A DNA stretch of 64,000 bases. It comes from a virus. Its lineage: Duplodnaviria; Caudoviricetes. The first letter of the stretch is position 1, and each line of letters opens with the position of its first letter. The stretch lies in IMG/VR virus record IMGVR_UViG_3300025849_003344, one strand, 5' to 3'. The notes beneath the pieces are model-generated. The model saw only the letters and a list, made by a program, of their open reading frames with translations. It ran no database searches and was not told the DNA's origin. The translations under genes and the position numbers were made by a program. Positions 10,120 through 61,294 of this stretch are shown here, in pieces.

Positions 10120-10485
10120 CTATTTTTTCACTTTTTTTTCTTTTACAGTGCCATCAGTTCTGCCAATCTGTTCAATTGGTCTATCTGGCCCGCATATTTT
10201 TCTACATGCCCGCGGTGCATATTCAAGACCTTCGTTTGCTCCTTTTACTACAGCATCAGAAAAAGCTAACCATTCATCTGTCAATAGAATATCTTCGATA
10301 GACTCATTATTTGAAAGTTTAAGCTCTTCGTTCAATAATGCGCTATATAGCGGATCTGGCGGTTTGTGCTCATAGTCAATGTGACAACACGGTATTAAAT
10401 ATCCGGTAGCAGTATGAGCAAATCCTTCTTTTTTCATAAGCAAGGATTTTTTAATGAGACACATAGGTTCAAATTCATTTACCAT
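10120..10485 (-). CDS. Stand-alone SPASM/twitch-like Fe-S domain
   Basis: C...TATGYLIPCC...ACRKICG; no CxxxCxxC. Confidence 0.7.
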   Translation of the reverse strand: MVNEFEPMCLIKKSLLMKKEGFAHTATGYLIPCCHIDYEHKPPDPLYSALLNEELKLSNNESIEDILLTDEWLAFSDAVVKGANEGLEYAPRACRKICGPDRPIEQIGRTDGTVKEKKVKK

Positions 10486-47760: not shown

Positions 47761-47794
47761 CCGCATTAATTTAGAGTGTATCATTTATGTTACT
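47761..47794. repeat. Direct repeat R copy 2, one arm of a 13-bp stem-loop adjoining an early promoter
   Basis: taaattaatgcgg-cgttaa-ccgcattaattta; 34 bp shared with copy 3. Confidence 0.95.
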
Positions 47795-48833
47795 TTACGA
47801 CGGAAGTTTCCTCTAATACTATTTCGTCACCGTCTTTATACGTATCAGACATTCGTTGTAAGGCATTATCGGTTATACCGAGTGTTTGACAAGCACCAAC
47901 AGTGTTGCATGGATATCCTATTTTATCGAACCTTTGCATCTTTAAATTATTAACAAAGTTTATACGATCTTGAGACTTCCAGATTTCTAACACAGTGCTC
48001 TCTTTAAGGTTACCAAGAACCTTGTCGTTATTATCATCTAAGCAACAAACATAGTAATCTCCGTTTGGAGCAATAAACATTTCCTCTTCAACTCGCTTGA
48101 TTAAGGGGCACTTCAAATCAGCATCGATTGCAAACTCACCAGTCTTAAATCGTTCTCTCTCTGCCCACAACCCAGGTTTGCTATGTCTAAATGTAAACAA
48201 TTCGTCATACAAATCTTGGCCCAAATAATCTAATACAGATTGTTGTGTTAGTTCAAAGGAACTAAAAGGAACAGATTCGCCGGGTGGGTGTTGGATAGGG
48301 TTCTTATTAAAAGCGTTAAACACAGCTAGTGAATATTCAAATGCTGGCATAACATTAATGCCAAAAAACATTTCAACGCCAAGTTCTTTTTTGATCTCTA
48401 AGAACTCTTTTACATTCTTCATTACAGAAGAGAAGCTAATCCCTTTTACCGATCTATATGCTCTATCGTTGTGCCCATCTACGTTGACTTGAATAGAGGT
48501 CAGTAGATTCTCTTCAAGTAATACACGCGACATTCTCTTAGACATTAAGCCAAAGTTGCTCAACATATCAATTTCTGTGTTGGGCAAATTCTTTTTAATA
48601 TAACGGAGAATGTCTACATAACTTTTATGATAAAGACCCTCACCATTCTCACTCATATGAATATTTTTAATCTCATATGGAAAATCAGGATGTGAGACCT
48701 CATCTATAATTTTATAGACAAGTTCAGCATCCATATCAAACGCAAGTTTAGTGCCCCGTGAAGTAGGGCACCAAACACATTTTGCATTACATCTATTAGA
48801 TAGCGCAAAGTTTAAGTTACGTAGTGGTTTCAA
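47790..48833 (-). CDS. Radical SAM/SPASM protein, paralog of 6119-7150
   Basis: TTG start; CNAKCVWC; IAPNGDYYVCC; 53/69 identities over the N-terminus by manual alignment. Confidence 0.9.
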   Translation of the reverse strand: MKPLRNLNFALSNRCNAKCVWCPTSRGTKLAFDMDAELVYKIIDEVSHPDFPYEIKNIHMSENGEGLYHKSYVDILRYIKKNLPNTEIDMLSNFGLMSKRMSRVLLEENLLTSIQVNVDGHNDRAYRSVKGISFSSVMKNVKEFLEIKKELGVEMFFGINVMPAFEYSLAVFNAFNKNPIQHPPGESVPFSSFELTQQSVLDYLGQDLYDELFTFRHSKPGLWAERERFKTGEFAIDADLKCPLIKRVEEEMFIAPNGDYYVCCLDDNNDKVLGNLKESTVLEIWKSQDRINFVNNLKMQRFDKIGYPCNTVGACQTLGITDNALQRMSDTYKDGDEIVLEETSVVK

Positions 48834-48853: not shown

Positions 48854-48923
48854 TTTAGGCAGCAGTGGCATACGCCACTGCTGCCTCTGCCGCATTAATT
48901 TAGAGTGTATCATTTATGTTACT
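48854..48923. repeat. Copy of the DUF932 gene 3' end fused to direct repeat R copy 3
   Basis: 48854-48894 matches 49935-49975 at 37/41; R at 48890-48923. Confidence 0.9.
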
Positions 48924-49884
48924 AGTATAGTCCGTTAGGAACTATGGCATAATGGATTGCTAATACAACACCGACTGATGCTGCAAGACCAACCATCATT
49001 TTCAGAAAGTCTTTTCCAATAAGTGGGAATACCACTTTGAATTTTTCTTTTCCAGTTACAGTAGCCATAGCAAGTTCACGTCCACACAATAAGCCAACAA
49101 ATACCCATGTCGTTGACATTGGAATATCATTCAACTCTTTAAAGAAGAATAAGATAAGCCAATAAACACCATCAATAATTGTAGCAGATCTTACATAACG
49201 AGTATTATGTTTTTCGAGAACGATCTGCTGGATTTTACCACCACCTTCTCTGAACATATACCAAAGACCAAGTACGAAGACTGCACTAACGACAATCATT
49301 AGATCGACCGGTATTTGTCGTGGTAAGAATACTGCGATGTTAGCTACATCATGCGAAAGCCATGTAAACCACAAAAATCCTGTAGTTACCCATTGACCGA
49401 TTCGCCAATATCGTTTATGTTCTTCTTTAACAGGTTTTGCTTCGTCTAATATTTTACTTACTACGATCCATATTGCATATGCCGCTACTGCAGCGACTGC
49501 ATATCCCATCATAGATTTCATAAGCATTTTTTCTAAAATAAATGTAGAAGCAAATGCAGATAAAACTAAAAAAGACGTGCTTACTGGTACGCCTATTCGA
49601 GTCAAGATTAGCAATAAACCTGGTGCCATTGCATGATACCATTGGATTTCTTGAAACGGAATCTTATTCAAACGACCATAACTAATGTCGCCTCCGTTCA
49701 TATACCAACCGTACCATAAGGTGTAAAGCAAGACAGCCGAAGCTGATCCCCACATTACTTTCCAGTTTACTCTCTCATTGTTTGATGCGATCCATGTACC
49801 GAGAGTCTGTACAGAATCATTAGCAATAACTGAATAAGCCGCGAATAAAAATCCGACGGCCATCCAGAGAGTTACAAGTTCCAT
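48922..49884 (-). CDS. PiT-family-like inorganic phosphate transporter
   Basis: Polytopic; ANDSVQTLGT and SHDVANIA resemble the two PiT signatures; PVSTS and PMSTT. Confidence 0.65.
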   Translation of the reverse strand: MELVTLWMAVGFLFAAYSVIANDSVQTLGTWIASNNERVNWKVMWGSASAVLLYTLWYGWYMNGGDISYGRLNKIPFQEIQWYHAMAPGLLLILTRIGVPVSTSFLVLSAFASTFILEKMLMKSMMGYAVAAVAAYAIWIVVSKILDEAKPVKEEHKRYWRIGQWVTTGFLWFTWLSHDVANIAVFLPRQIPVDLMIVVSAVFVLGLWYMFREGGGKIQQIVLEKHNTRYVRSATIIDGVYWLILFFFKELNDIPMSTTWVFVGLLCGRELAMATVTGKEKFKVVFPLIGKDFLKMMVGLAASVGVVLAIHYAIVPNGLY

Positions 49885-51874: not shown

Positions 51875-51913
51875 TCATAAACTTCCATCATAAACTTCCA
51901 TCATAAACTTCCA
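51875..51913. repeat. 13-bp tandem repeat, 3 copies (tcataaacttcca)
   Basis: Exact copies at 51875, 51888, 51901. Confidence 0.95.
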
Positions 51914-52133
51914 TTCCTGTAAAACCTTCTTGAGTCCAACCACGAGCGTCAGCATGAGCGGCGACCATATGAATATAATCCATTTGAGGCCAATGACCTT
52001 CCTTCAAAGCCCACTGTTTCATATCTGATTGAACAGCGATTGACTGCTCGCCTTGAGCAGTCTCGGCATAAATACGTTCAGCCTCAGACTCAACCATGTT
52101 CCATTCGGTGTTTTGCGTTTCAAAATTTGTCAT
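51888..52133 (-). CDS. Hypothetical early protein; C-terminus lies in the 13-bp repeat
   Basis: ORF track. Confidence 0.6.
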   Translation of the reverse strand: MTNFETQNTEWNMVESEAERIYAETAQGEQSIAVQSDMKQWALKEGHWPQMDYIHMVAAHADARGWTQEGFTGMEVYDGSL

Positions 52134-52375
52134 TATACTGTTTCTCCAAAAAAGTTATCAACTAGAACTTCAAAGCACTCATACAGATATTCTGAAGTGT
52201 ACCACAATGAAAGTTCTAAGTTTAGGTCAGCGTCAACAAAGTTCCAGTTAATACCACCCGATGAATTAATATTCTCAGGATTCGTAGTAGCTTTGTTAAA
52301 AGCTTCGATTACGTCATTCTTGATCATTGCACCGTTTGATAATAACATGGTTATCTCCTCATTTGATATATACAC
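52133..52375 (-). CDS. Hypothetical early protein
   Basis: INWNFVDADL; early promoter 52374-52402; true start probably near 52345 after GAGGAG. Confidence 0.6.
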   Translation of the reverse strand: MYISNEEITMLLSNGAMIKNDVIEAFNKATTNPENINSSGGINWNFVDADLNLELSLWYTSEYLYECFEVLVDNFFGETV

Positions 52376-52440
52376 TATACACTATCTAAAAGGTAATGTA
52401 CATAAAAAAATGCGGTTTTTTAAAAAATAGTTTTGTTTAA

Positions 52441-52626
52441 AAGCAAAGGTTTATAATTTTATGCGAGAATTTAATTAGTGGTATAGAAAAAGCTCCTAAT
52501 ATGTGTCAAATATTCTGTAAGAAGATACATACTAAAACCATAAATGGCTCTCCTAACTGTGCGATAAATAGAACTAGAGTTAAATTAAAAGATGATAACA
52601 ATTATTTGGTGAAGTATGACAATTAG
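52441..52626 (+). pseudogene. Possible remnant of a SPASM-domain C-terminus
   Basis: Open frame ...LCENLISGIEKAPNMCQIFCKK...; stop overlaps the oxygenase start. Confidence 0.4.
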
Positions 52627-53272
52627 CGAAGAACGATTAGAAGAAGTAATTTATTGGAACAGACTCCAGAGCATGTCTGACTGGCAGGAGTTTCACGGAT
52701 TTAGCGCAAACAGAATTAAAGAAGAGCTTAAGCCGTTTGAAAATGATTGGGTACGATATAATCCTAAGAAACCAAACAACCGCTGGGGCTTAAGTGTTAC
52801 TAGTTTAGATGGTGGACTTAGTGGCATTCCAGATCTCACAAGTTTAAAAGACTGGGAACTTCAAACAGGTGAAGTATTAGCAAACCACGACATTACAACT
52901 CCCACCCGTGTGTGGACGGAAAGTGAACATCTTTCGCAGATGCTCGAACCATGGAAACAGTGGATAACGCGTTGTCACTTTCTTAGAATGGACCGCGGTA
53001 GCTTTTTTCCAGATCATCACGATATAAACAAATCAGACTTATCATATGATGAAGTAAGACTAACTGCGTTTATCGATTGTGATGAATATAATTTTAAATG
53101 GATTTACGACGATAAAATTGTAAAGTGCAATCCTGGTTCAATGTGGTATTTTAATGCTAACAAGCGCCACAGCGTTCATTCAACACGAGATGGAGTAATC
53201 ATCTTAGTGATTTGTTTAGCGTTTGACAAGGATCTTTTTCTATATATGCAGGACGCTGGACTAGTTAGTTGA
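52616..53272 (+). CDS. Asp/Asn beta-hydroxylase-like 2OG-Fe(II) oxygenase (cupin)
   Basis: RCHFLRMDRGSFFPDHHD (HxD)...GSMWYFNANKRHSV. Confidence 0.8.
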   Translation: MTISEERLEEVIYWNRLQSMSDWQEFHGFSANRIKEELKPFENDWVRYNPKKPNNRWGLSVTSLDGGLSGIPDLTSLKDWELQTGEVLANHDITTPTRVWTESEHLSQMLEPWKQWITRCHFLRMDRGSFFPDHHDINKSDLSYDEVRLTAFIDCDEYNFKWIYDDKIVKCNPGSMWYFNANKRHSVHSTRDGVIILVICLAFDKDLFLYMQDAGLVS

Positions 53273-54528
53273 TTTATGCGCTATTCGGCATTCTTGCCGG
53301 AACAGTCTTTGGCATTATTCCAGGCGCTGGTCCTTTCCTAGCAATTGCCACACTTTATCCCATACTTGCCACATTTGATCCAATTGGGATTATGATATTT
53401 TATGTGGCTTTGCTTATTACATCAAACTATACAAACAGCGTAACTGCTATTCTTTATGGAATACCAGGAGATGCAGGAGCTGTAACTACTGCAAGATACG
53501 GCCATAAAATGTTTCTAGAAGGCAAAGGACATTATGCGGTAAGTAGTAACGCAATATCGAGTACGATAGGATCTATTTTTGCAATCGTGGTATTTCTAAT
53601 ATCACTTCCATTTATATTTCAGTTATTTAAATTTTACAATTCTACGATTCAATTAATTGTTATCAGCATTGCTATTATATTCCTAACAATAATGACAAAG
53701 CAGGCTTATTGGAAAACCATAGTTCTTTTTATTCTTGGTGGAATATTAGCCAAGATCGGATATGATAATCTGACAAAAGAAACATGGGGAACATTTGGAT
53801 TTACATATCTAACCCTTGGCATACCTTTTAGCACAATTATGATTGGTCTCTATATTGTCCCTGAGTTACTTAAGTTTGCTGAGAAAGATTTTACTGGTAA
53901 AAATAAAATTACAAAGTTTGCGTATGATCTAAGCACTTGGAAGGCTACGGCCACCGGTAGTTTTGTAGGATTTTGGTGTGGCTTAGTTCCTGGAATTACA
54001 AATGTTTTAGGCAGCTATCTAAGCGCTAATTTTATGAAGAAGGACATAGATAAAATAGCTGCAGCAGAAGCTGCTAATAATAGTGGAGCATTAAGTTCTC
54101 TTCTTCCGCTTATTATTTTAGGAATACCGATTGTTGGAAGTGAAGTACTAATATATTATCTTGTAGTTACTCGTGGATTTACTTTTGATTTAGAAAACAT
54201 TTACATGCTACAAGACGTATTGTATTATATTCCAATCGTATTAGTAGCATGCTTAGTTTTATCATGGTTGTATTTTAATCAACTAGGATATATTGCGGAT
54301 CTATATAAAAGATATAAGCACTATTTTATTATTGGCATTTTTGTATTCATCTCTGTTATGAGCATATACATATACCCAATAAAATTTTGGATAATAACAT
54401 GTCTGATAGTCACAACTGGAATTGGATTTCTTATAAGAAAGTGGGAAACGTTCCCAATTCTGTATGGATTCTTTTTAACTGATTTATTCTATAACAACCT
54501 ATTACGAGTCATAGCGATATACACATGA
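53269..54528 (+). CDS. tctA: Tripartite tricarboxylate transporter large subunit, TctA family
   Basis: FGIIPGAG...YGIPGD...GLVPG...AAAEAANNS...LIILGIP. Confidence 0.85.
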   Translation: MIYALFGILAGTVFGIIPGAGPFLAIATLYPILATFDPIGIMIFYVALLITSNYTNSVTAILYGIPGDAGAVTTARYGHKMFLEGKGHYAVSSNAISSTIGSIFAIVVFLISLPFIFQLFKFYNSTIQLIVISIAIIFLTIMTKQAYWKTIVLFILGGILAKIGYDNLTKETWGTFGFTYLTLGIPFSTIMIGLYIVPELLKFAEKDFTGKNKITKFAYDLSTWKATATGSFVGFWCGLVPGITNVLGSYLSANFMKKDIDKIAAAEAANNSGALSSLLPLIILGIPIVGSEVLIYYLVVTRGFTFDLENIYMLQDVLYYIPIVLVACLVLSWLYFNQLGYIADLYKRYKHYFIIGIFVFISVMSIYIYPIKFWIITCLIVTTGIGFLIRKWETFPILYGFFLTDLFYNNLLRVIAIYT

Positions 54529-55679
54529 ATAATTTAATATTAGGATACAAACGAGGGTATTATCGGTGCCAGGCTATTCAAACAGCGTTAGCTAAATTTC
54601 AGCAGAAGTCAACTATTATAACTGATGAAGATGATTTTGAAAAGATCGAAGGCAACTATGATCGAATATTTACAATGTCAGAAAGCTTACTGCCATTACA
54701 ATACAAATTAGAACAGCAATTAGGAATTAATAACCTAACAAAAGAGTCAGTTGAAATACTTACTAATAAATTTAAAATGGATGAATACGCCAGATCTTTA
54801 GGGTTTACTATTACACCTAAAAGTGTATTGCCTGAAAATGCTGAAGATCTAAACGCATTTGGAGATAAACCTGTTTTTGTAAAACCTGTTGTTGGATCTG
54901 GCACAAAAGATCAGCATCATAACTTTCCATACACTGCATTTAAAAATAAAGATGAATTGTTAAAGCATGTAAGTTTTAATACATGGATTGATAAAGACTT
55001 TAACAACACGCAAAATCAATTGATGGTTCAAGAACATTTACCAGACAACTCAGAGATATACGCGCTTTATGCTTATGTCAATTCTTCTGGAAGAGTCACA
55101 CCTCTCTATTGGTGTAAAGGCATCATAATGGTGAATAATAGGACTGAGACACATTGGCAACCAAGAAATTACTCATTTGAAGGAATACCCACAAATGAAG
55201 TTCCAGGAAAAATAAAACATACCGTGACTTATTTCTATCAAAAATTAGTAGACGGACTTAAAATAAAAAATCTATCAATGGTTGCTGACTTTTATTATTT
55301 TGATGACACGATTAAATTCATTGATTTAAATCCACGTATCGGCCAAGGAATGGTTATGTACGACGATTTATGTGACAATGAATTTTTACCTAATGTCTTT
55401 GCAGAAATGCCTTTACCAGAATTTAAAAGACATTTGTGGAAAGAAACTAAGTTAAAGGCCGGAACCATAAAAAGTGTTGGCGATTATAAATCTGTAGAAG
55501 GAGCGGGCGTTGCTTCAAATTTTCATTTGCATGATGGTGTTGTAATACCGGAAGAATACTGTTTATCAAGTCAGGATTTTCATTTTTCATTATTCGTATC
55601 TGGAAAAGAAAAAACCGATATGTACGAAACATATCGGTCTTCCCATAATCAATTACAAGCTTGTATAGAATATTATTGA
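54525..55679 (+). CDS. ATP-grasp domain protein
   Basis: LTNKFKM, VFVKPVVGSGT, VQEHL, FIDLNPRIG. Confidence 0.85.
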   Translation: MNNLILGYKRGYYRCQAIQTALAKFQQKSTIITDEDDFEKIEGNYDRIFTMSESLLPLQYKLEQQLGINNLTKESVEILTNKFKMDEYARSLGFTITPKSVLPENAEDLNAFGDKPVFVKPVVGSGTKDQHHNFPYTAFKNKDELLKHVSFNTWIDKDFNNTQNQLMVQEHLPDNSEIYALYAYVNSSGRVTPLYWCKGIIMVNNRTETHWQPRNYSFEGIPTNEVPGKIKHTVTYFYQKLVDGLKIKNLSMVADFYYFDDTIKFIDLNPRIGQGMVMYDDLCDNEFLPNVFAEMPLPEFKRHLWKETKLKAGTIKSVGDYKSVEGAGVASNFHLHDGVVIPEEYCLSSQDFHFSLFVSGKEKTDMYETYRSSHNQLQACIEYY

Positions 55680-56443
55680 GTATTGAGAGCTACAGCAGCT
55701 TTAACTTTATCAACAATCATATTTGCATTTGCATCATTTACGACATAAGTCTCAGTTCCTTCAAATGCTGCCAACCATTCATCAGTTGACATTAGTTCGG
55801 CTACGGCTGCGCGCGCTTGCCATACAACGGCCTCTGATGCATTAACGGCAAGAATAATATCAACAAATGCAAAGTCTAGATCACCATTTGCGCTAAAGGC
55901 AAAACAATTTCCGTCTGCTTCAATTTTTTCTTGTCGTGTTTGAATAGTAAAAATAGTATCTGCATCATTAGCAAGATAACCACGAGTTGTTCCGCCTGAA
56001 CCTTCATATGGAACAATCTCAAAATTTACATTATTTGCTTCACCTAACTCATTAATAAATTTAGTTACAGCATCAACGCCACCCCAAGTTGCGACCTTTA
56101 CGGTCTGACCTGCCATATCATCAACCGAGTTGAATGTACGACTGCACATTACTGTTTCATATGTTTGAAGAGCTACGATGGTTGAATCATCAATTGCCAC
56201 TGTTGGCATTTCTGAATCACCTGGCCATTCTGTACTCCACATTGTGAGCACATCGCCACCATCAAAGTAGGTAGACGCTACCACTGGATTTCCAGCTTGT
56301 ACAAAATTATGATCGATTTTAGTACCAACCATATCTAGTACTGCTTTAAACCCGCCCGAATCAGATCCGGTATTAACAATTGTAGTAGCATTTGCGAGAG
56401 GAGCAGCCAAGGAAAAGGCTGCGGCTAGAATAACATTTTTCAT
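55673..56443 (-). CDS. TctC-like periplasmic substrate-binding protein
   Basis: Signal peptide (ANA-T); FEIVPYEGSGGTTRGYLANDAD resembles the TctC PYxG motif. Confidence 0.65.
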   Translation of the reverse strand: MKNVILAAAFSLAAPLANATTIVNTGSDSGGFKAVLDMVGTKIDHNFVQAGNPVVASTYFDGGDVLTMWSTEWPGDSEMPTVAIDDSTIVALQTYETVMCSRTFNSVDDMAGQTVKVATWGGVDAVTKFINELGEANNVNFEIVPYEGSGGTTRGYLANDADTIFTIQTRQEKIEADGNCFAFSANGDLDFAFVDIILAVNASEAVVWQARAAVAELMSTDEWLAAFEGTETYVVNDANANMIVDKVKAAVALNTQ

Positions 56444-56532
56444 TATCAGTCCTTATTTACAAAAAATTATAAAGTGTGGGGCTAACCTCGGCCCCACGCG
56501 CATCCGATAGTGGATGATACTTCTTCTATATA

Positions 56533-56901
56533 TTAGAAAGAAAAGCTAGCGCCAATTACGACATCGCCGCGAGTTTCGTTTTCTAAATCATAATCAGTTT
56601 CAACATATACTTCTGCGTTGTCGAAGATACCATAACCGACTTTAAAGTCAAGTGTTGGATTTGTATCCATGAATACAAACTCGTCGTTGTAAATCATGAG
56701 ATCAGTTGAAAGTGTAAAGTCCATGCCGTAAAGACCATAACCCATTTCTGGAGTAAGTTCAACGGTCATGTTTTCAACATCGACATTATATTCAGCAGTT
56801 GTTGTAGCACCAAGTGAGATACCAGTGGCTCCAAGCTCAGCGGCTTGAATAGTTGTTGCTGAGGCCAGCAACACAGCAGCAGTAATAGCAGCAAATTTCA
56901 T
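56533..56901 (-). CDS. Small outer-membrane beta-barrel/porin-like protein
   Basis: Signal peptide, amphipathic beta strands, C-terminal IGASFSF. Confidence 0.7.
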   Translation of the reverse strand: MKFAAITAAVLLASATTIQAAELGATGISLGATTTAEYNVDVENMTVELTPEMGYGLYGMDFTLSTDLMIYNDEFVFMDTNPTLDFKVGYGIFDNAEVYVETDYDLENETRGDVVIGASFSF

Positions 56902-56925: not shown

Positions 56926-57156
56926 TTATTTTCGATTCCAGATTTCGTATAGAACCCAAACAGCAAGTAAACCTACAAGGCCTTGTGATCCCAATGCGGC
57001 TATCATAGCACTTACATTAGCCACAACGCTTACAGCAGGAATGAATGGAAGTGTTCCCACGCCCAATACTTCAAGTACAATCATGAGAGCGGCGATACTA
57101 ATACCGACTTCTGCTAGTCCAGCAGCCCATGTTTTTACTTTGTTTAGAATGTCCAT
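56926..57156 (-). CDS. Small membrane protein
   Basis: Two hydrophobic helices. Confidence 0.65.
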   Translation of the reverse strand: MDILNKVKTWAAGLAEVGISIAALMIVLEVLGVGTLPFIPAVSVVANVSAMIAALGSQGLVGLLAVWVLYEIWNRK

Positions 57157-57881: not shown

Positions 57882-58370
57882 TTATTTTTCCCAGTAAAAT
57901 ATGTGTGCTCCGATACGAGCAATACGGTTAAGTTTCTTTGACCAGAATGGTTTAGCATAAGTAGCGTGATAGTGTGTTGCGCCTTCAGTAATTCCACGAA
58001 ATTCACCATGGATATACATGTCCCGAGCAAACTTACGTGATTTTTCCCATGCTTCATCATCGTGTGGAGTATCTGATTTGCCATCACAATACCAGCTAAA
58101 TTGGCAATAACGGTTGCCTTTTTTATATCCTTGATGAACTACATCGCATGGTGTGTTTGGATAACGTGTGCTTTCTACACGATTTAAAACAACATCAGTG
58201 ACTGCCATTGCATCCGCTAAGCTACGAGAATGTGTCTCATAATAAACGTTAAGCGCTAAGCATTCTAATTGTTTTTCTTGTTCTACCTTTTCTGCCGCGT
58301 CTACTCCGATAGCCATAACGCTTGTTGCAACTATAGTGTTAATCATTACTGATGCGATTAACTTTTTCAT
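57882..58370 (-). CDS. SleB/Hydrolase_2 cell-wall hydrolase
   Basis: CLALNVYYE...VVLNRV...CQFSWYCDG...GATHYHA...IGAHIFY; early promoter 58402-58430. Confidence 0.9.
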   Translation of the reverse strand: MKKLIASVMINTIVATSVMAIGVDAAEKVEQEKQLECLALNVYYETHSRSLADAMAVTDVVLNRVESTRYPNTPCDVVHQGYKKGNRYCQFSWYCDGKSDTPHDDEAWEKSRKFARDMYIHGEFRGITEGATHYHATYAKPFWSKKLNRIARIGAHIFYWEK

Positions 58371-58433: not shown

Positions 58434-59114
58434 TTAATTTAGCTTTATTGGAAATATTTTTTCAATAGCTTTACCTACTTCGATAGCCAAATCCATATGT
58501 TCTTTCTGTGTTCCATTTGCAGATCGAAGTTCGATATAATGAATCCATGATCTAATAGTACCATTCACATACAATCTAGAAACGGTATTGCCTTCTGGCA
58601 GAACAGCTCTGGCTTGCTCTTTGGCAATGCCTGCTTCAATAGCCCAGTCATAAGCATGCTTCGCCGCTTCGATTACTTTTTGCTGATGGGCATGCCACGC
58701 TCTTTGAAGATGTTTATCATCTGTATCAATTGAGTTCTGGCGGTTCTTAGTATCTTGTAGGCGCGCCTCTCGAATTACAAAATTATTACCAAGATCACGT
58801 ACATCAGCATAGCGCTGACTAAACTCCTGAAAAGAAAACGAACGATGCCGGAGTAACTGTCTGGCGATGTCTCTTGTCGTGGTGACTTCGATGCACGCTG
58901 ACGCCATTTCGAATGGTGACCAGTGCTTGTGCTTGACGAGGTACTCCAAGAGTTTTTGTGTTGTCTTTGTGTTCCGCTGATTCGACGGATTGGAGACACG
59001 GGCGGCAAACGCGATGAGATCCGCAATGTTATCTAAACCTCCTATTGCCAATTCTCCGCCATGAATACGGTAAGATGGCTGACTGTGTGAAATTAGGCGA
59101 GCTTCCATGGTCAT
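58434..59114 (-). CDS. thyX: FAD-dependent thymidylate synthase
   Basis: HWSPFE...RQLLRHRSFSFQEFSQRY...RSWIHYIELR. Confidence 0.95.
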   Translation of the reverse strand: MTMEARLISHSQPSYRIHGGELAIGGLDNIADLIAFAARVSNPSNQRNTKTTQKLLEYLVKHKHWSPFEMASACIEVTTTRDIARQLLRHRSFSFQEFSQRYADVRDLGNNFVIREARLQDTKNRQNSIDTDDKHLQRAWHAHQQKVIEAAKHAYDWAIEAGIAKEQARAVLPEGNTVSRLYVNGTIRSWIHYIELRSANGTQKEHMDLAIEVGKAIEKIFPIKLN

Positions 59115-60475: not shown

Positions 60476-60882
60476 AGCATTCCCTCTTCACGCATTTTTG
60501 CACGGATTTTTGTAGCACTAATATTATGAATATCATTACCAAGATCGTGCTGCGTGAAGGTATATCCGACGCCACGACCATAGCTAATGTCTACGATGTT
60601 TGGTACCTCCATTATAACATATTCTTTATTGATAGTAAACCCCTCACGGGCCAATCCTTCAACAATTTGTGAAGAAACAAAATCAAATCCAAAGGGATTA
60701 TCAGTTTGAGCTTCTGTCCTTCCACCGCCAGCATCTTCACCAACAATCCCGCCAACATCACGAACCATAATAACAACTTGCCCGGTTTGACCCAAAGCTT
60801 TTTTAAATAATTCCGTGTGGCCTTTATGCCAAGGCTGCCATCGCCCTAACATTTGCGCCGACGGCTTTTTCCAATCAAACAT
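60472..60882 (-). CDS. Cytidylyltransferase-like HxGH nucleotidyltransferase
   Basis: MLGRWQPWHKGH...ISATKIR. Confidence 0.8.
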   Translation of the reverse strand: MFDWKKPSAQMLGRWQPWHKGHTELFKKALGQTGQVVIMVRDVGGIVGEDAGGGRTEAQTDNPFGFDFVSSQIVEGLAREGFTINKEYVIMEVPNIVDISYGRGVGYTFTQHDLGNDIHNISATKIRAKMREEGML

Positions 60883-61294
60883 GGTATGTCTCCTTCATCC
60901 GGTTAGCTAAATCTAGGATCCACTCATCAGATTGAAATGCGTCAATAACATAATCAAAGTCGGTTGGCTCTTCGAAGATCTTGTTGGTATCATCAAACCG
61001 GCCTGCTTCGATAGTGTTCATCCAAATTATGATATCGGCGTTGAACTCTTGACGAGTAGCACCTGTTGGACAAACAAAGTCACATATGACAGTACGACCT
61101 CTAGTACCTTCAAATGTTGCAATCGTATTCATACGCTCTGATTGTCGCCTACGACCAGCATCACTAAAGTCCCAGTCATTCGCCATTTCCCGTACTTTAT
61201 CAGCATTGTACCAAGCACAATTCAGATGGATCTGTAGCCGCTTGGCTAGATGTGTTTTACCAGAACCTGGCAATCCCATTATTAGTATTTTCAT
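60875..61294 (-). CDS. cysC: Adenylylsulfate (APS) kinase-like protein
   Basis: MGLPGSGKT...NADKVR...WDFSDAGRRRQ...DFVCP...FEEP. Confidence 0.75.
   Translation of the reverse strand: MKILIMGLPGSGKTHLAKRLQIHLNCAWYNADKVREMANDWDFSDAGRRRQSERMNTIATFEGTRGRTVICDFVCPTGATRQEFNADIIIWMNTIEAGRFDDTNKIFEEPTDFDYVIDAFQSDEWILDLANRMKETYHV

What the first reader, a model, noticed from the sequence alone, without database searches (positions are those of the whole stretch)
52616..56901. Candidate new system: hydroxylase + ATP-grasp ligase + complete uptake chain
A plus-strand operon (Asp/Asn beta-hydroxylase-like oxygenase, TctA, ATP-grasp) converges with a 7-nt overlap on a minus-strand pair (porin-like protein, TctC-like binding protein). 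Biosynthetic enzymes interleaved with outer-membrane, periplasmic and inner-membrane transport parts suggest the phage makes a small hydroxylated carboxylate or peptide and re-imports or senses it. TTT systems carry carboxylates, ATP-grasp enzymes form amide bonds, and beta-hydroxy-Asp is a known metal ligand. A metallophore or an arbitrium-like signal are the leading inferences. No TctB is visible and the TctA is short (419 aa).
Basis: partly seen in the sequence, partly recalled or inferred. Interest (0 to 1): 0.85.

Follow-up and report, generated by a model that had tools for sequence, protein, structure and literature searches.

The report
Phage import-and-convert gene cassette
Uncultured marine T4-like phages carry a four-gene unit that always travels together (a periplasmic binding protein, a membrane permease of the TctA family, an oxygenase and an ATP-grasp ligase), most likely to take up a small organic acid from seawater and convert it inside the infected cell; the "porin" and the "make-and-re-import" idea are not supported.

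Summary
All five ORFs exist at the stated coordinates, with the stated overlaps. Four identities hold. The permease is a complete TctA domain (Pfam E 7e-62). The 256-aa secreted protein folds as a TctC/Bug binding protein (Z 15.9; the top 11 PDB matches are all TTT binding proteins). The 218-aa protein is a 2OG/Fe(II) oxygenase with an invariant HxD...H, closest to small-molecule beta-hydroxylases (Cpz10, Z 17.5). The 384-aa protein keeps every ATP-grasp motif.

The 122-aa "porin" has no family match. It occurs only in the nearest relatives, and a hairpin separates it from the binding-protein gene. It is not part of the unit.

The other four genes stay together in about 100 IMG/VR contigs, in six gene orders and in unrelated genome neighbourhoods. 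They are under strong purifying selection (dN/dS 0.06-0.11).

A distant phage pairs the same two enzyme families with a 2-aminoethylphosphonate-type ABC binding protein instead. This points to scavenging plus conversion, not to synthesis and re-import.

There is no TctB, exporter or precursor gene. No cellular or isolate-phage relative of the ligase was found. The substrate is unknown.

The scan's notes report a similar binding-protein/ATP-grasp pair on another phage genome; that note is unchecked.

Viral tctA was noted in 2014 without an assigned role. The cassette itself is undescribed.

The parts
52376..52615 (.). 240-nt spacer ahead of the plus-strand operon, divergent from minus-strand genes 51888-52375. 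It presumably holds the promoter region.
   Evidence: ORF map and sequence. A 151-nt contig from an RNA library is identical to 52394-52544; this shows presence only.
52616..53272 (+). 2OG/Fe(II)-type oxygenase, 218 aa (P0001), closest to small-molecule beta-hydroxylases of the AspH/proline-hydroxylase group.
   Evidence: AF2 model pLDDT 90. VIA Z 17.5 to Cpz10 (7v4m, rmsd 2.3 A over 160 aa), 14.2 to L-proline cis-4-hydroxylase and 13 to AspH. H134, D136 and H185 are invariant. 31% identity to the Asp_Arg_Hydrox protein of Pelagibacter phage Mosig.
53269..54528 (+). TctA-family permease, 419 aa (P0002). TTG start overlapping the oxygenase stop. No TctB partner.
   Evidence: PF01970 E 7.2e-62, model positions 2-415 of 423. 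The start is ATG at the same position in L007. dN/dS 0.056. The best cellular TctA among 300 alphaproteobacterial genomes scores 151 bits, against 741 bits for the phage type.
54525..55679 (+). Phage-specific ATP-grasp ligase, 384 aa (P0003), with a family-specific C-terminal domain.
   Evidence: Invariant K120-P121, G124-S-G126, Q169, D255 and D267-x-N269-P-R271. NCBIfam PRK12767 E 4.5e-5, below cut-off. Atlas neighbours carry ATP-grasp_4. Only 77 representatives among 1.84 billion proteins. dN/dS 0.11.
55673..56443 (-). Secreted TctC/Bug-fold solute-binding protein, 256 aa (P0004), convergent with the ATP-grasp gene and overlapping it by 7 nt.
   Evidence: AF2 model pLDDT 79.8. Foldseek top hit TctC 4x9t, E 1e-8. 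VIA Z 15.9; the top 11 are all TTT binding proteins and the next family scores 11.3. Hydrophobic N-terminus. dN/dS 0.08.
56476..56497 (-). GC-rich hairpin (7 pairs, 6 of them G-C) between the 122-aa gene and the binding-protein gene, followed by TATAAT and a Shine-Dalgarno sequence for the binding-protein gene.
   Evidence: Terminator scan and sequence. A function as terminator or promoter is inferred.
56533..56901 (-). 122-aa secreted, beta-rich protein ending in SFSF (P0005). A lineage-specific neighbour, not part of the conserved cassette and not a porin by any test run.
   Evidence: No Pfam, PHROG or NCBIfam family. Found only in loci at least 88% identical in TctA.
56926..57156 (-). 76-aa protein with two hydrophobic helices (P0271), upstream of P0005. 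Lineage-specific. Not a recognisable TctB.
   Evidence: Translation. Hydropathy and distribution.

Best explanation
This is a self-contained 'import-and-convert' cassette of uncultured marine T4-like phages.

Proposed mechanism:
1. The secreted TctC-fold protein captures a small solute that bears a carboxylate, probably an amino-acid-like one, in the periplasm of the infected Gram-negative cell.
2. It hands the solute to a divergent, TctB-less TctA permease, which moves it across the inner membrane using an ion gradient.
3. In the cytoplasm two co-inherited enzymes process it: a 2OG/Fe(II) hydroxylase and an ATP-grasp ligase. The ligase would form an amide (or ester) bond through an acyl-phosphate, which also traps the solute.

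The purpose is either nutrient gain during infection or supply of a building block for a phage-specific product.

Shown: the gene identities at family or fold level, their tight and shuffle-resistant linkage, purifying selection, and restriction to phages.

Inferred: binding protein-permease cooperation, function without TctB, the direction of flux, the order of the two enzyme steps and the substrate class.
For: Identities:
- TctA, Pfam E 7e-62.
- Binding protein: Z 15.9 to TctC, with the top 11 PDB matches all TTT binding proteins.
- Oxygenase: invariant HxD...H. Its seven best PDB matches are small-molecule or free-amino-acid hydroxylases: Cpz10 at Z 17.5 and proline hydroxylases at 14.2 (PMC9814697).
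- ATP-grasp: motifs invariant across a family that diverges to 31% identity.

Linkage:
- In 60 IMG/VR loci seeded with the binding protein, the ATP-grasp gene abuts it convergently and TctA is adjacent, wherever the contig allows.
- Seeded with the oxygenase, TctA follows directly in nearly all loci with at least 57% identity.
- Six gene orders occur, including an inversion of the binding-protein/ligase pair and an oxygenase placed between them.
- L068 has a non-orthologous PF05118 oxygenase in the same slot ahead of TctA.
- The flanking genes differ completely between lineages.

Analogous replacement: L158-160 carry rSAM, a homologue of the ATP-grasp (hhalign 97%, E 9e-11), a PhnS2-type ABC binding protein (TIGR03261, E 2e-103) and a P0001-family oxygenase.

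Selection: dN/dS 0.06-0.11.

Precedent from established knowledge: phage PstS, a binding protein used for nutrient scavenging. TTT systems are abundant and highly expressed in SAR11-type hosts (PMC11796062).
Against: - No TctB in any locus; bacterial TTT systems have one (PMC5812351).
- The binding protein has no Pfam TctC hit and only a partial match to the family's P-F-x-A-G-G-x-x-D signature.
- The complex prediction for TctA plus binding protein gave no verdict.
- The ATP-grasp fold was not modelled, and neither its substrate nor its class is known.
- In the L075-like clade the oxygenase lies 4-7 kb away, or beyond the sequence fetched, so it may be less tightly tied than the other three genes.
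- Nothing shows the direction of flux.
- RNA-library contigs show presence only.
Confidence: 0.5

Rival explanations
1. Make and recapture. The oxygenase and the ATP-grasp build a hydroxylated amide product, either a metallophore or a signal. It leaves the cell, and the binding protein and TctA take it up again or sense it.
For: - ATP-grasp enzymes and AspH-type hydroxylases do occur in natural-product pathways; Cpz10, the closest structure, is biosynthetic (PMC9814697).
- TTT binding proteins can carry metal-citrate (bioRxiv 10.64898/2026.07.27.740893, abstract).
- A scan note (e1-4121753, unchecked) describes a bacterial unit of ATP-grasp, exporter, TonB receptor and TctCAB.
- Radical-SAM genes recur near the cassette.
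Against: - No exporter, TonB-dependent receptor, NRPS/NIS synthetase, precursor peptide or regulator is linked in any lineage.
- The 'porin' is not part of the unit.
- The analogous cassette uses a PhnS2-type binding protein for a common environmental phosphonate.
- A lytic T4-like phage has little time to benefit from a secreted public good.
Confidence: 0.1
2. Transporter and enzymes are neighbours without a shared substrate. TctA and the binding protein import a nutrient, while the oxygenase and the ATP-grasp modify a macromolecule (ribosomal or virion protein, lipid A or ornithine lipid, DNA).
For: - AspH-family enzymes include protein hydroxylases and lipid hydroxylases (OlsC is rank 8).
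- A P0001 relative in Pelagibacter phage Mosig sits among sugar/lipid-type enzymes with no transporter.
- Some oxygenase loci show no TctA within 7 kb (L123, L131 and others).
- Phage operons overlap genes regardless of function.
Against: - The binding-protein/ATP-grasp pair is never separated in any locus.
- The cassette keeps all four genes while the flanks change completely.
- A different PF05118 oxygenase fills the same slot in L068.
- The enzyme pair re-appears with another class of binding protein in L159.
- The best structural matches of the oxygenase act on small molecules.
Confidence: 0.15
3. The binding protein is not a transport component. It is a periplasmic receptor or decoy, for example for sensing, for superinfection control or for host recognition, and TctA has another role.
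For: - Scan notes (e1-2306680, e1-5349492, unchecked) report phage Bug-like proteins paired with ATP-using ligases without TctA, one of them travelling with tail-fibre tips.
- The binding protein lacks a Pfam TctC match.
- The complex prediction gave no verdict.
Against: - TctA is adjacent to the binding protein in every lineage where the contig allows.
- It is under the strongest purifying selection of the four genes (dN/dS 0.056).
- The fold matches transport binding proteins best.
- The cassette is not near fibre genes in the window.
Confidence: 0.08

Closest known systems
[quoted passage not shown]
   Same: - TctA-family permease with a complete PF01970 domain.
- Secreted two-lobed binding protein whose best structural matches are TctC/Bug proteins.
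- Gly-rich strand-turn-helix loops at the two 'pincer' positions (GSDSGG at 26-31, PYEGSGG at 145-151).
   Different: - No TctB.
- TctA is about 80 aa shorter than cellular ones. It scores about 200 bits on the Pfam model, against 380-470 bits for cellular TctA in the same MAG.
- The binding protein is about 40-50 aa shorter, has no Pfam TctC hit and keeps the domain-1 signature only in part.
- The genes are interleaved with two enzymes, and the binding-protein gene is convergent with the ligase gene.
- Found only on phage contigs.
Viral tctA 'auxiliary metabolic gene' on SUP05-associated viral contigs (Roux et al. 2014, PMC4164917)
   Same: A TctA-domain gene on uncultured marine phage contigs, next to 2OG-Fe(II) oxygenase genes. 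Its role was stated to be unknown.
   Different: That report lists a domain hit only. Here the gene is shown to be one part of a conserved four-gene unit with its own binding protein and two enzymes. Whether the 2014 contigs carry the same cassette was not checked.
Phage-encoded PstS and other single binding-protein AMGs of cyanophages (from established knowledge)
   Same: A phage-supplied periplasmic binding protein that boosts uptake of a scarce solute during infection. The L159 variant, with only a PhnS2-like binding protein, fits this model directly.
   Different: The window's cassette also brings its own membrane permease and two downstream enzymes.
Cpz10 (caprazamycin beta-hydroxylase) and free L-proline cis-3/cis-4-hydroxylases; AspH/PF05118 group
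   Same: Double-stranded beta-helix fold, an HxD...H iron site and small size. Z 17.5, 14.2 and 13 respectively.
   Different: 10-13% sequence identity. P0001 itself does not reach the PF05118 threshold. The 2OG-binding residue and the substrate are unknown.
ATP-grasp carboxylate-amine ligases (ATP-grasp_4, PRK12767 'CPSase-like', ATPgrasp_ST)
   Same: Lys-Pro strand, Gly-rich loop, hinge Gln/Glu and the D...D-x-N-x-R magnesium/catalytic motif.
   Different: No HMM reaches its threshold. The profile finds nothing in the PDB. The family has a C-terminal domain of its own of about 90 aa. Only 77 representatives exist among 1.84 billion proteins.

Membership tests
TTT transporter (TC 2.A.80) | TctA large membrane subunit (PF01970) | tested here: met
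   E 7.2e-62, 209.8 bits, model positions 2-415 of 423.
TTT transporter (TC 2.A.80) | TctB small 4-TM subunit encoded with TctA | tested here: not met
   No small 4-TM ORF in the cassette, either in the window or in any of the six gene orders. The 76-aa 2-TM P0271 is lineage-specific. DUF6580 precedes TctA only in the L075 clade.
TTT transporter (TC 2.A.80) | TctC/Bug-type periplasmic binding protein | tested here: met
   Fold: Z 15.9 to 4x9t, with the top 11 matches all TTT binding proteins. Sequence HMM PF03401: no hit.
TTT transporter (TC 2.A.80) | Domain-1 signature P-F-x-A-G-G-x-x-D in the beta1-alpha1 loop (PMC5812351) | tested here: inconclusive
   P0004 has N-T-G-S-D-S-G-G-F-K-A at that loop. 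G26, S27 and G30 are invariant, but P, F and the trailing D are absent.
TTT transporter (TC 2.A.80) | Binding protein docks on TctA and drives uptake | tested here: inconclusive
   Complex prediction scored 0.31 against a mark of 0.32, so no verdict. Transport cannot be tested with these tools.
2OG/Fe(II) oxygenase, AspH/proline-hydroxylase group (PF05118) | Double-stranded beta-helix fold with an HxD/E...H iron triad | tested here: met
   Model pLDDT 90. Z 13-17.5. H134, D136 and H185 invariant in 29 sequences.
2OG/Fe(II) oxygenase, AspH/proline-hydroxylase group (PF05118) | Sequence match to the PF05118 model | tested here: not met
   Only Cupin_2 at E 0.023. Indirect links: 31% identity to the Mosig protein annotated Asp_Arg_Hydrox, and atlas clusters in which 16-25% of members carry PF05118.
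ATP-grasp superfamily | Conserved ATP- and Mg-binding motifs | tested here: met
   K120-P121, G124-S125-G126, Q169, D255, D267, N269 and R271 are invariant in alignment A3. The assignment of roles to these motifs rests on my knowledge of the superfamily.
ATP-grasp superfamily | Three-domain ATP-grasp fold or a significant HMM match | tested here: inconclusive
   NCBIfam PRK12767 at E 4.5e-5 and 22 bits, against a cut-off of 218. Pfam finds nothing. The profile finds nothing in the PDB.
Porin / outer-membrane beta-barrel | Barrel-family HMM or enough length for a pore (general porins have 16 or more strands and about 300 aa) | tested here: not met
   P0005 is 122 aa, about 100 when mature, and matches no family. 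It does have a signal-like N-terminus and a C-terminal Phe. A minimal 8-strand barrel is not excluded.
Siderophore/metallophore locus | Scaffold synthetase (NRPS or NIS), exporter and TonB-dependent receptor | tested here: not met
   None lies in or beside the cassette in the window or in L012, L015, L068, L075, L124 or L159.
Arbitrium-like phage communication | Short secreted pro-peptide gene plus an intracellular peptide receptor/regulator | tested here: not met
   No such pair lies in the cassette. Its four conserved genes are a permease, a binding protein and two enzymes.

The most novel reading that the evidence does not exclude
The phage enzymes build a hydroxylated amide compound that leaves the infected cell and is recaptured through the phage's own binding protein and TctB-independent TctA. 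That would be a virus-encoded metallophore or small-molecule signal with a private uptake route.
Probability: 0.08. Interest if true: 0.9.

Novelty: new variant of a known kind. Interest (0 to 1): 0.6.

Why it matters
Phage auxiliary genes for nutrient uptake are so far mostly single binding proteins, such as PstS, that plug into host transporters. This cassette would be different: a phage-borne, complete, binding-protein-dependent secondary transporter wired to its own two-enzyme pathway.

- It is widespread in ocean viromes: about 280 oxygenase-bearing and 60 binding-protein-bearing IMG/VR stretches were found here.
- It is absent from the 50,697 phage records searched.
- It gives a concrete context for the viral tctA gene, whose role has been open since 2014.
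- It offers a natural test of whether TctA can work without TctB.
- It defines an unstudied ATP-grasp family.
- The TctC-type and PhnS2-type binding proteins swap around the same enzyme pair. This suggests a modular way for phages to tap different dissolved organic compounds.

Tried and rejected
- PHROGs gave nothing for any of the nine ORFs.
- blastn of the region against the phage collection found no match.
- tblastn against the phage collection:
  - TctA hit only seven unrelated or contaminant-like records at 23-28% identity.
  - The ATP-grasp and the binding protein hit nothing.
- The nearest held virus record, G001, is an 18-kb fragment without TctA.
- Single-sequence and profile searches of PDB sequences gave nothing useful for the ligase or the binding protein. 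For the oxygenase they gave only a weak Cpz10 hit.
- Genome-contig scans:
  - No cellular relative of the ligase.
  - The only TctA hits were two GC-34% contigs that carry the whole cassette, inside a Rhodobacteraceae MAG. I read these as mis-binned phage.
- Complex prediction for TctA plus binding protein gave no verdict (score 0.31). This is not evidence either way.
- The plus-strand ORF 52053-52430 was rejected as a gene, because it lies antisense to two minus-strand ORFs.
- The 98-99-aa acidic protein upstream of the oxygenase in L012/L015 was considered as a precursor or TctB substitute. It is soluble, absent from the window and only patchily present.
- N-terminal extensions of two ligase homologues (P0274, P0275) gave no informative domain.
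- Metatranscriptome contigs match parts of the cassette exactly, but at depth 2-6 and without strand. They show presence in RNA libraries, not transcription.

Full report
**Setting.** The window is part of a marine T4-like phage genome.
- It encodes ribonucleotide reductase and a gp41-type helicase, plus many small co-oriented ORFs.
- The helicase is 71% identical to that of uncultured-type 'Phage C48C1' and about 62% identical to cyanomyophage helicases.
- GC content is 33-41%.
- The window's own assembly is not held. The nearest virus record shares 21% of k-mers and is an 18-kb fragment.

**The observation.**
- The plus-strand genes are translationally coupled: TTGA at 53269-53272 and ATGA at 54525-54528.
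- The ATP-grasp gene and the 256-aa gene converge with a 7-nt overlap.
- The TTG start of TctA is supported in two ways. The Pfam alignment begins at residue 2, and relative L007 has an ATG at the same position.

**What each gene is.**

*P0002 (permease).* It is a full TctA domain (PF01970, E 7.2e-62, model positions 2-415 of 423). It is unusually divergent.
- In a MAG that holds both kinds, cellular TctA genes score 380-474 bits on the Pfam model and the phage type scores about 200 bits.
- A profile of phage TctAs scores 717-741 bits on phage-type copies. Its best score in 300 sampled alphaproteobacterial genomes is 151 bits, and all of those copies sit in open frames of roughly 490-820 aa, most about 500, against 419-430 aa in the phages.

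*P0004 (binding protein).* It has a hydrophobic N-terminus and no HMM match.
- Its AF2 model (pLDDT 79.8) matches TctC/Bug proteins best. Foldseek gives 4x9t at E 1e-8.
- VIA-align gives Z 15.9, rmsd 3.4 A over 236 residues. The first eleven entries are all TTT binding proteins (Z 11.7-15.9), ahead of MetQ/SsuA-type proteins at 11.3 or below.
- The family signature P-F-x-A-G-G-x-x-D described in PMC5812351 is only partly kept: N-T-G-S-D-S-G-G at the beta1-alpha1 loop.
- A second Gly-rich loop, P-Y-E-G-S-G-G at 145-151, sits at the other 'pincer' position.
- The strand-end loops that should line the cleft carry invariant Trp69, Trp73, Tyr146 and Glu72, and nearly invariant Trp120 and Asp28. I read this, as inference only, as a site for a ligand with a carboxylate plus a cationic or polyhydroxy part.

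*P0001 (oxygenase).* The model (pLDDT 90) is a 2OG/Fe(II) oxygenase fold.
- H134-x-D136...H185 is invariant in 29 homologues.
- Best matches: Cpz10, the caprazamycin beta-hydroxylase (Z 17.5, rmsd 2.3 A over 160 of 168 residues; PMC9814697); free L-proline cis-4- and cis-3-hydroxylases (Z 14.2 and 13.5); then AspH (Z 13).
The nearest structures, however, act on small amino-acid-like molecules and not on proteins.

*P0003 (ligase).* It keeps every ATP-grasp motif across a family that diverges to 31% identity. It reaches only sub-threshold HMM hits, and its atlas neighbours carry ATP-grasp_4.
- An exhaustive HMMER search of 1.84 billion representatives found just 77 relatives.
- The ten hits scanned carry no ATP-grasp or other Pfam family above its curated cut-off, apart from one weak ATPgrasp_ST hit.
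- No relative was found in one genome of each of 185,579 prokaryote species.
- Its fold was not modelled.

*P0005 (the 'porin').* It is 122 aa, has a signal-like start and ends in SFSF.
- It matches no family.
- It occurs only in the window's nearest relatives.
- A GC-rich hairpin plus a TATAAT/Shine-Dalgarno arrangement separates it from the binding-protein gene.
- It may be a small envelope protein, but it is not a porin by any test run and not part of the unit.

**Do the genes belong together?** Yes, for four of them.

Seeding IMG/VR with the binding protein gave 60 loci.
- Wherever the contig reaches far enough, the ATP-grasp gene abuts the binding-protein gene convergently and TctA is adjacent.
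- The P0001-type oxygenase sits directly upstream of TctA in most of them.

Seeding with the oxygenase gave 282 stretches. In the 80 kept, TctA follows directly in nearly every locus with at least 57% identity.

Six arrangements occur:
1. Oxygenase, TctA, ligase, then the convergent binding protein (the window's order).
2. The same with an FkbM-type methyltransferase after TctA.
3. Oxygenase, TctA, methyltransferase, binding protein, then the convergent ligase.
4. TctA, binding protein, oxygenase, then the convergent ligase.
5. Oxygenase 4-7 kb upstream, with radical-SAM and other genes in between.
6. A non-orthologous PF05118 oxygenase (165 aa, E 4e-5) in the slot ahead of TctA.

In about 30 distant loci with at least 11 kb of sequence, none of the window's flanking genes is nearby, not even the helicase that lies 4 kb away in the window. 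The single exception is L041. Conserved T4-like synteny therefore cannot explain the linkage. The unit moves and is kept as a unit.

All four genes are under purifying selection. dN/dS is 0.056 for TctA, 0.11 for the ligase and 0.08 for the binding protein. For the oxygenase dN is 0.11 and dS is saturated.

**An informative variant.** Contigs L158-160 carry, in one operon:
- a radical-SAM enzyme;
- a 456-aa homologue of the P0003 family (hhalign probability 97%, E 9e-11, aligned through the family-specific C-terminus);
- an ABC-type binding protein that matches the PhnS2 model for 2-aminoethylphosphonate (TIGR03261, E 2e-103, 346 bits, just under the 393-bit cut-off);
- a P0001-family oxygenase at 37% identity.

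They have no TctA. So the same enzyme pair is tied to a binding protein of a different class. The constant requirement is therefore 'periplasmic capture plus these two enzymes'. Where the host can supply the membrane part, the phage brings only the binding protein.

This is the pattern known for phage PstS, and it favours scavenging of an environmental solute. It also hints, no more, at a small amino-acid-like or aminophosphonate-like substrate class.

**Mechanism proposed.** The steps are capture by the TctC-fold protein, ion-coupled import by TctA without TctB, then hydroxylation and ATP-dependent ligation in the cytoplasm.
- Archaeal TctA homologues also lack TctB and TctC (PMC5812351), so TctB independence has a precedent, though an untested one.
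- The order of the two enzyme steps, the co-substrate of the ligase and the fate of the product are unknown.
- Two fates are plausible: assimilation for nutrients, or use as a building block for a phage-specific product. For the second, radical-SAM, methyltransferase and PP-loop genes recur beside the cassette, and a first-reader note places a DNA-hypermodification operon just beyond the window.

I put 0.5 on import-and-convert. The other readings get:
- 0.15 on 'neighbours with unrelated substrates';
- 0.10 on make-and-recapture;
- 0.08 on a non-transport role of the binding protein;
- the rest unassigned.

**What is known.** Viral tctA was listed as a putative AMG ('protein domain hit only', role unknown) on SUP05-associated viral contigs in 2014 (PMC4164917) and repeated in a 2019 review (PMC6359870). 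Full-text searches found no description of the cassette. The pelagimyophage survey does not mention TctA, although it lists an AspH-type gene as core.

None of the four proteins has a close match in 50,697 phage records. The one link is a 31% oxygenase relative in Pelagibacter phage Mosig, which has no transporter beside it.

**Earlier scan notes.** All of these are unchecked leads and are not used as evidence.
- The same stretch was noted from another window (e1-5375401).
- Another phage genome was noted to have a Bug-like binding protein coupled to an ATP-grasp gene without TctA (e1-5349492). This agrees with the inseparable pair seen here.
- Other notes describe phage Bug-like proteins next to ATP-using ligases or 2OG oxygenases (e1-2306680, e1-5380868).
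- One note describes a bacterial unit of ATP-grasp, exporter, TonB receptor and TctCAB (e1-4121753), which keeps the make-and-recapture rival alive.

**Expression.** Four marine metatranscriptome runs hold short contigs identical or near-identical to parts of TctA, the ligase, the binding protein, P0005 and the upstream spacer. Depth is 2-6. These are assembled contigs without strand, and DNA carry-over cannot be excluded.

**Verdict.** It is wrong on the outer-membrane part. The idea of a functional unit is well supported. The specific metallophore and signal reading is not.

This is a new, phage-restricted variant of a TTT uptake system fused to a two-enzyme pathway, with the substrate unknown.

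Noticed in passing
window 48922-49884 (-): 320-aa polytopic membrane protein (P0349) with only a weak PHO4/PiT hit (E 0.0019, below cut-off). In L028 and L079 its homologue (74-75% identity) lies directly divergent from the cassette's oxygenase gene, so it may be a fifth, facultative member.
   Followed up: partly
L159 3511-7588 (also L158, L160): An operon of radical-SAM enzyme, P0003-family ATP-grasp (456 aa), PhnS2-like 2-aminoethylphosphonate binding protein and P0001-family oxygenase, without TctA. It may be a phage phosphonate-scavenging unit.
   Followed up: partly
L075 4263-8451: Between the oxygenase and TctA lie a B12-binding radical-SAM protein (586 aa), three unknown ORFs and a DUF6580 membrane protein (172 aa, E 9e-42) directly ahead of TctA. 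The DUF6580 protein could be a small-subunit substitute or a cofactor transporter.
   Followed up: no
L124 1547-4422 and 9564-11540: A twitch-domain radical-SAM protein, a PP-loop ATPase-like protein and a second radical-SAM protein lie just upstream of TctA. A 658-aa protein with an Mtd_N (major tropism determinant) domain lies just downstream of the cassette.
   Followed up: no
L079, L080 (FZLS01000023.1, FZLS01000099.1): Two GC-34% contigs binned in a 'Rhodobacteraceae bacterium Water_Bin34' MAG each carry the full four-gene cassette. They are almost certainly mis-binned phage contigs from two different phages.
   Followed up: partly
Many contigs run on into unlike sequence, so much of the signal comes from related tmRNAs of other organisms.
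   Followed up: no
L012 11304-16574: The neighbourhood of the cassette in a 54-235-kb phage lineage holds an SbmA/BacA-like membrane protein, a second PF05118 oxygenase, ribosomal protein L33 and ClpS.
   Followed up: no
window 47790-48833 (-), 57882-58370 (-), 58434-59114 (-), 60875-61294 (-): Context genes: a radical-SAM/SPASM protein, a cell-wall hydrolase (Hydrolase_2), ThyX and an APS-kinase-like P-loop protein.
   Followed up: no
P0274, P0275 (homologues of the ligase): Two ATP-grasp homologues carry N-terminal extensions: 111 aa, Cys-rich, with similar small ORFs elsewhere in these phages including window 10162-10422; and 259 aa of unknown kind. They may be real fusions or gene-call read-through.
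   Followed up: partly
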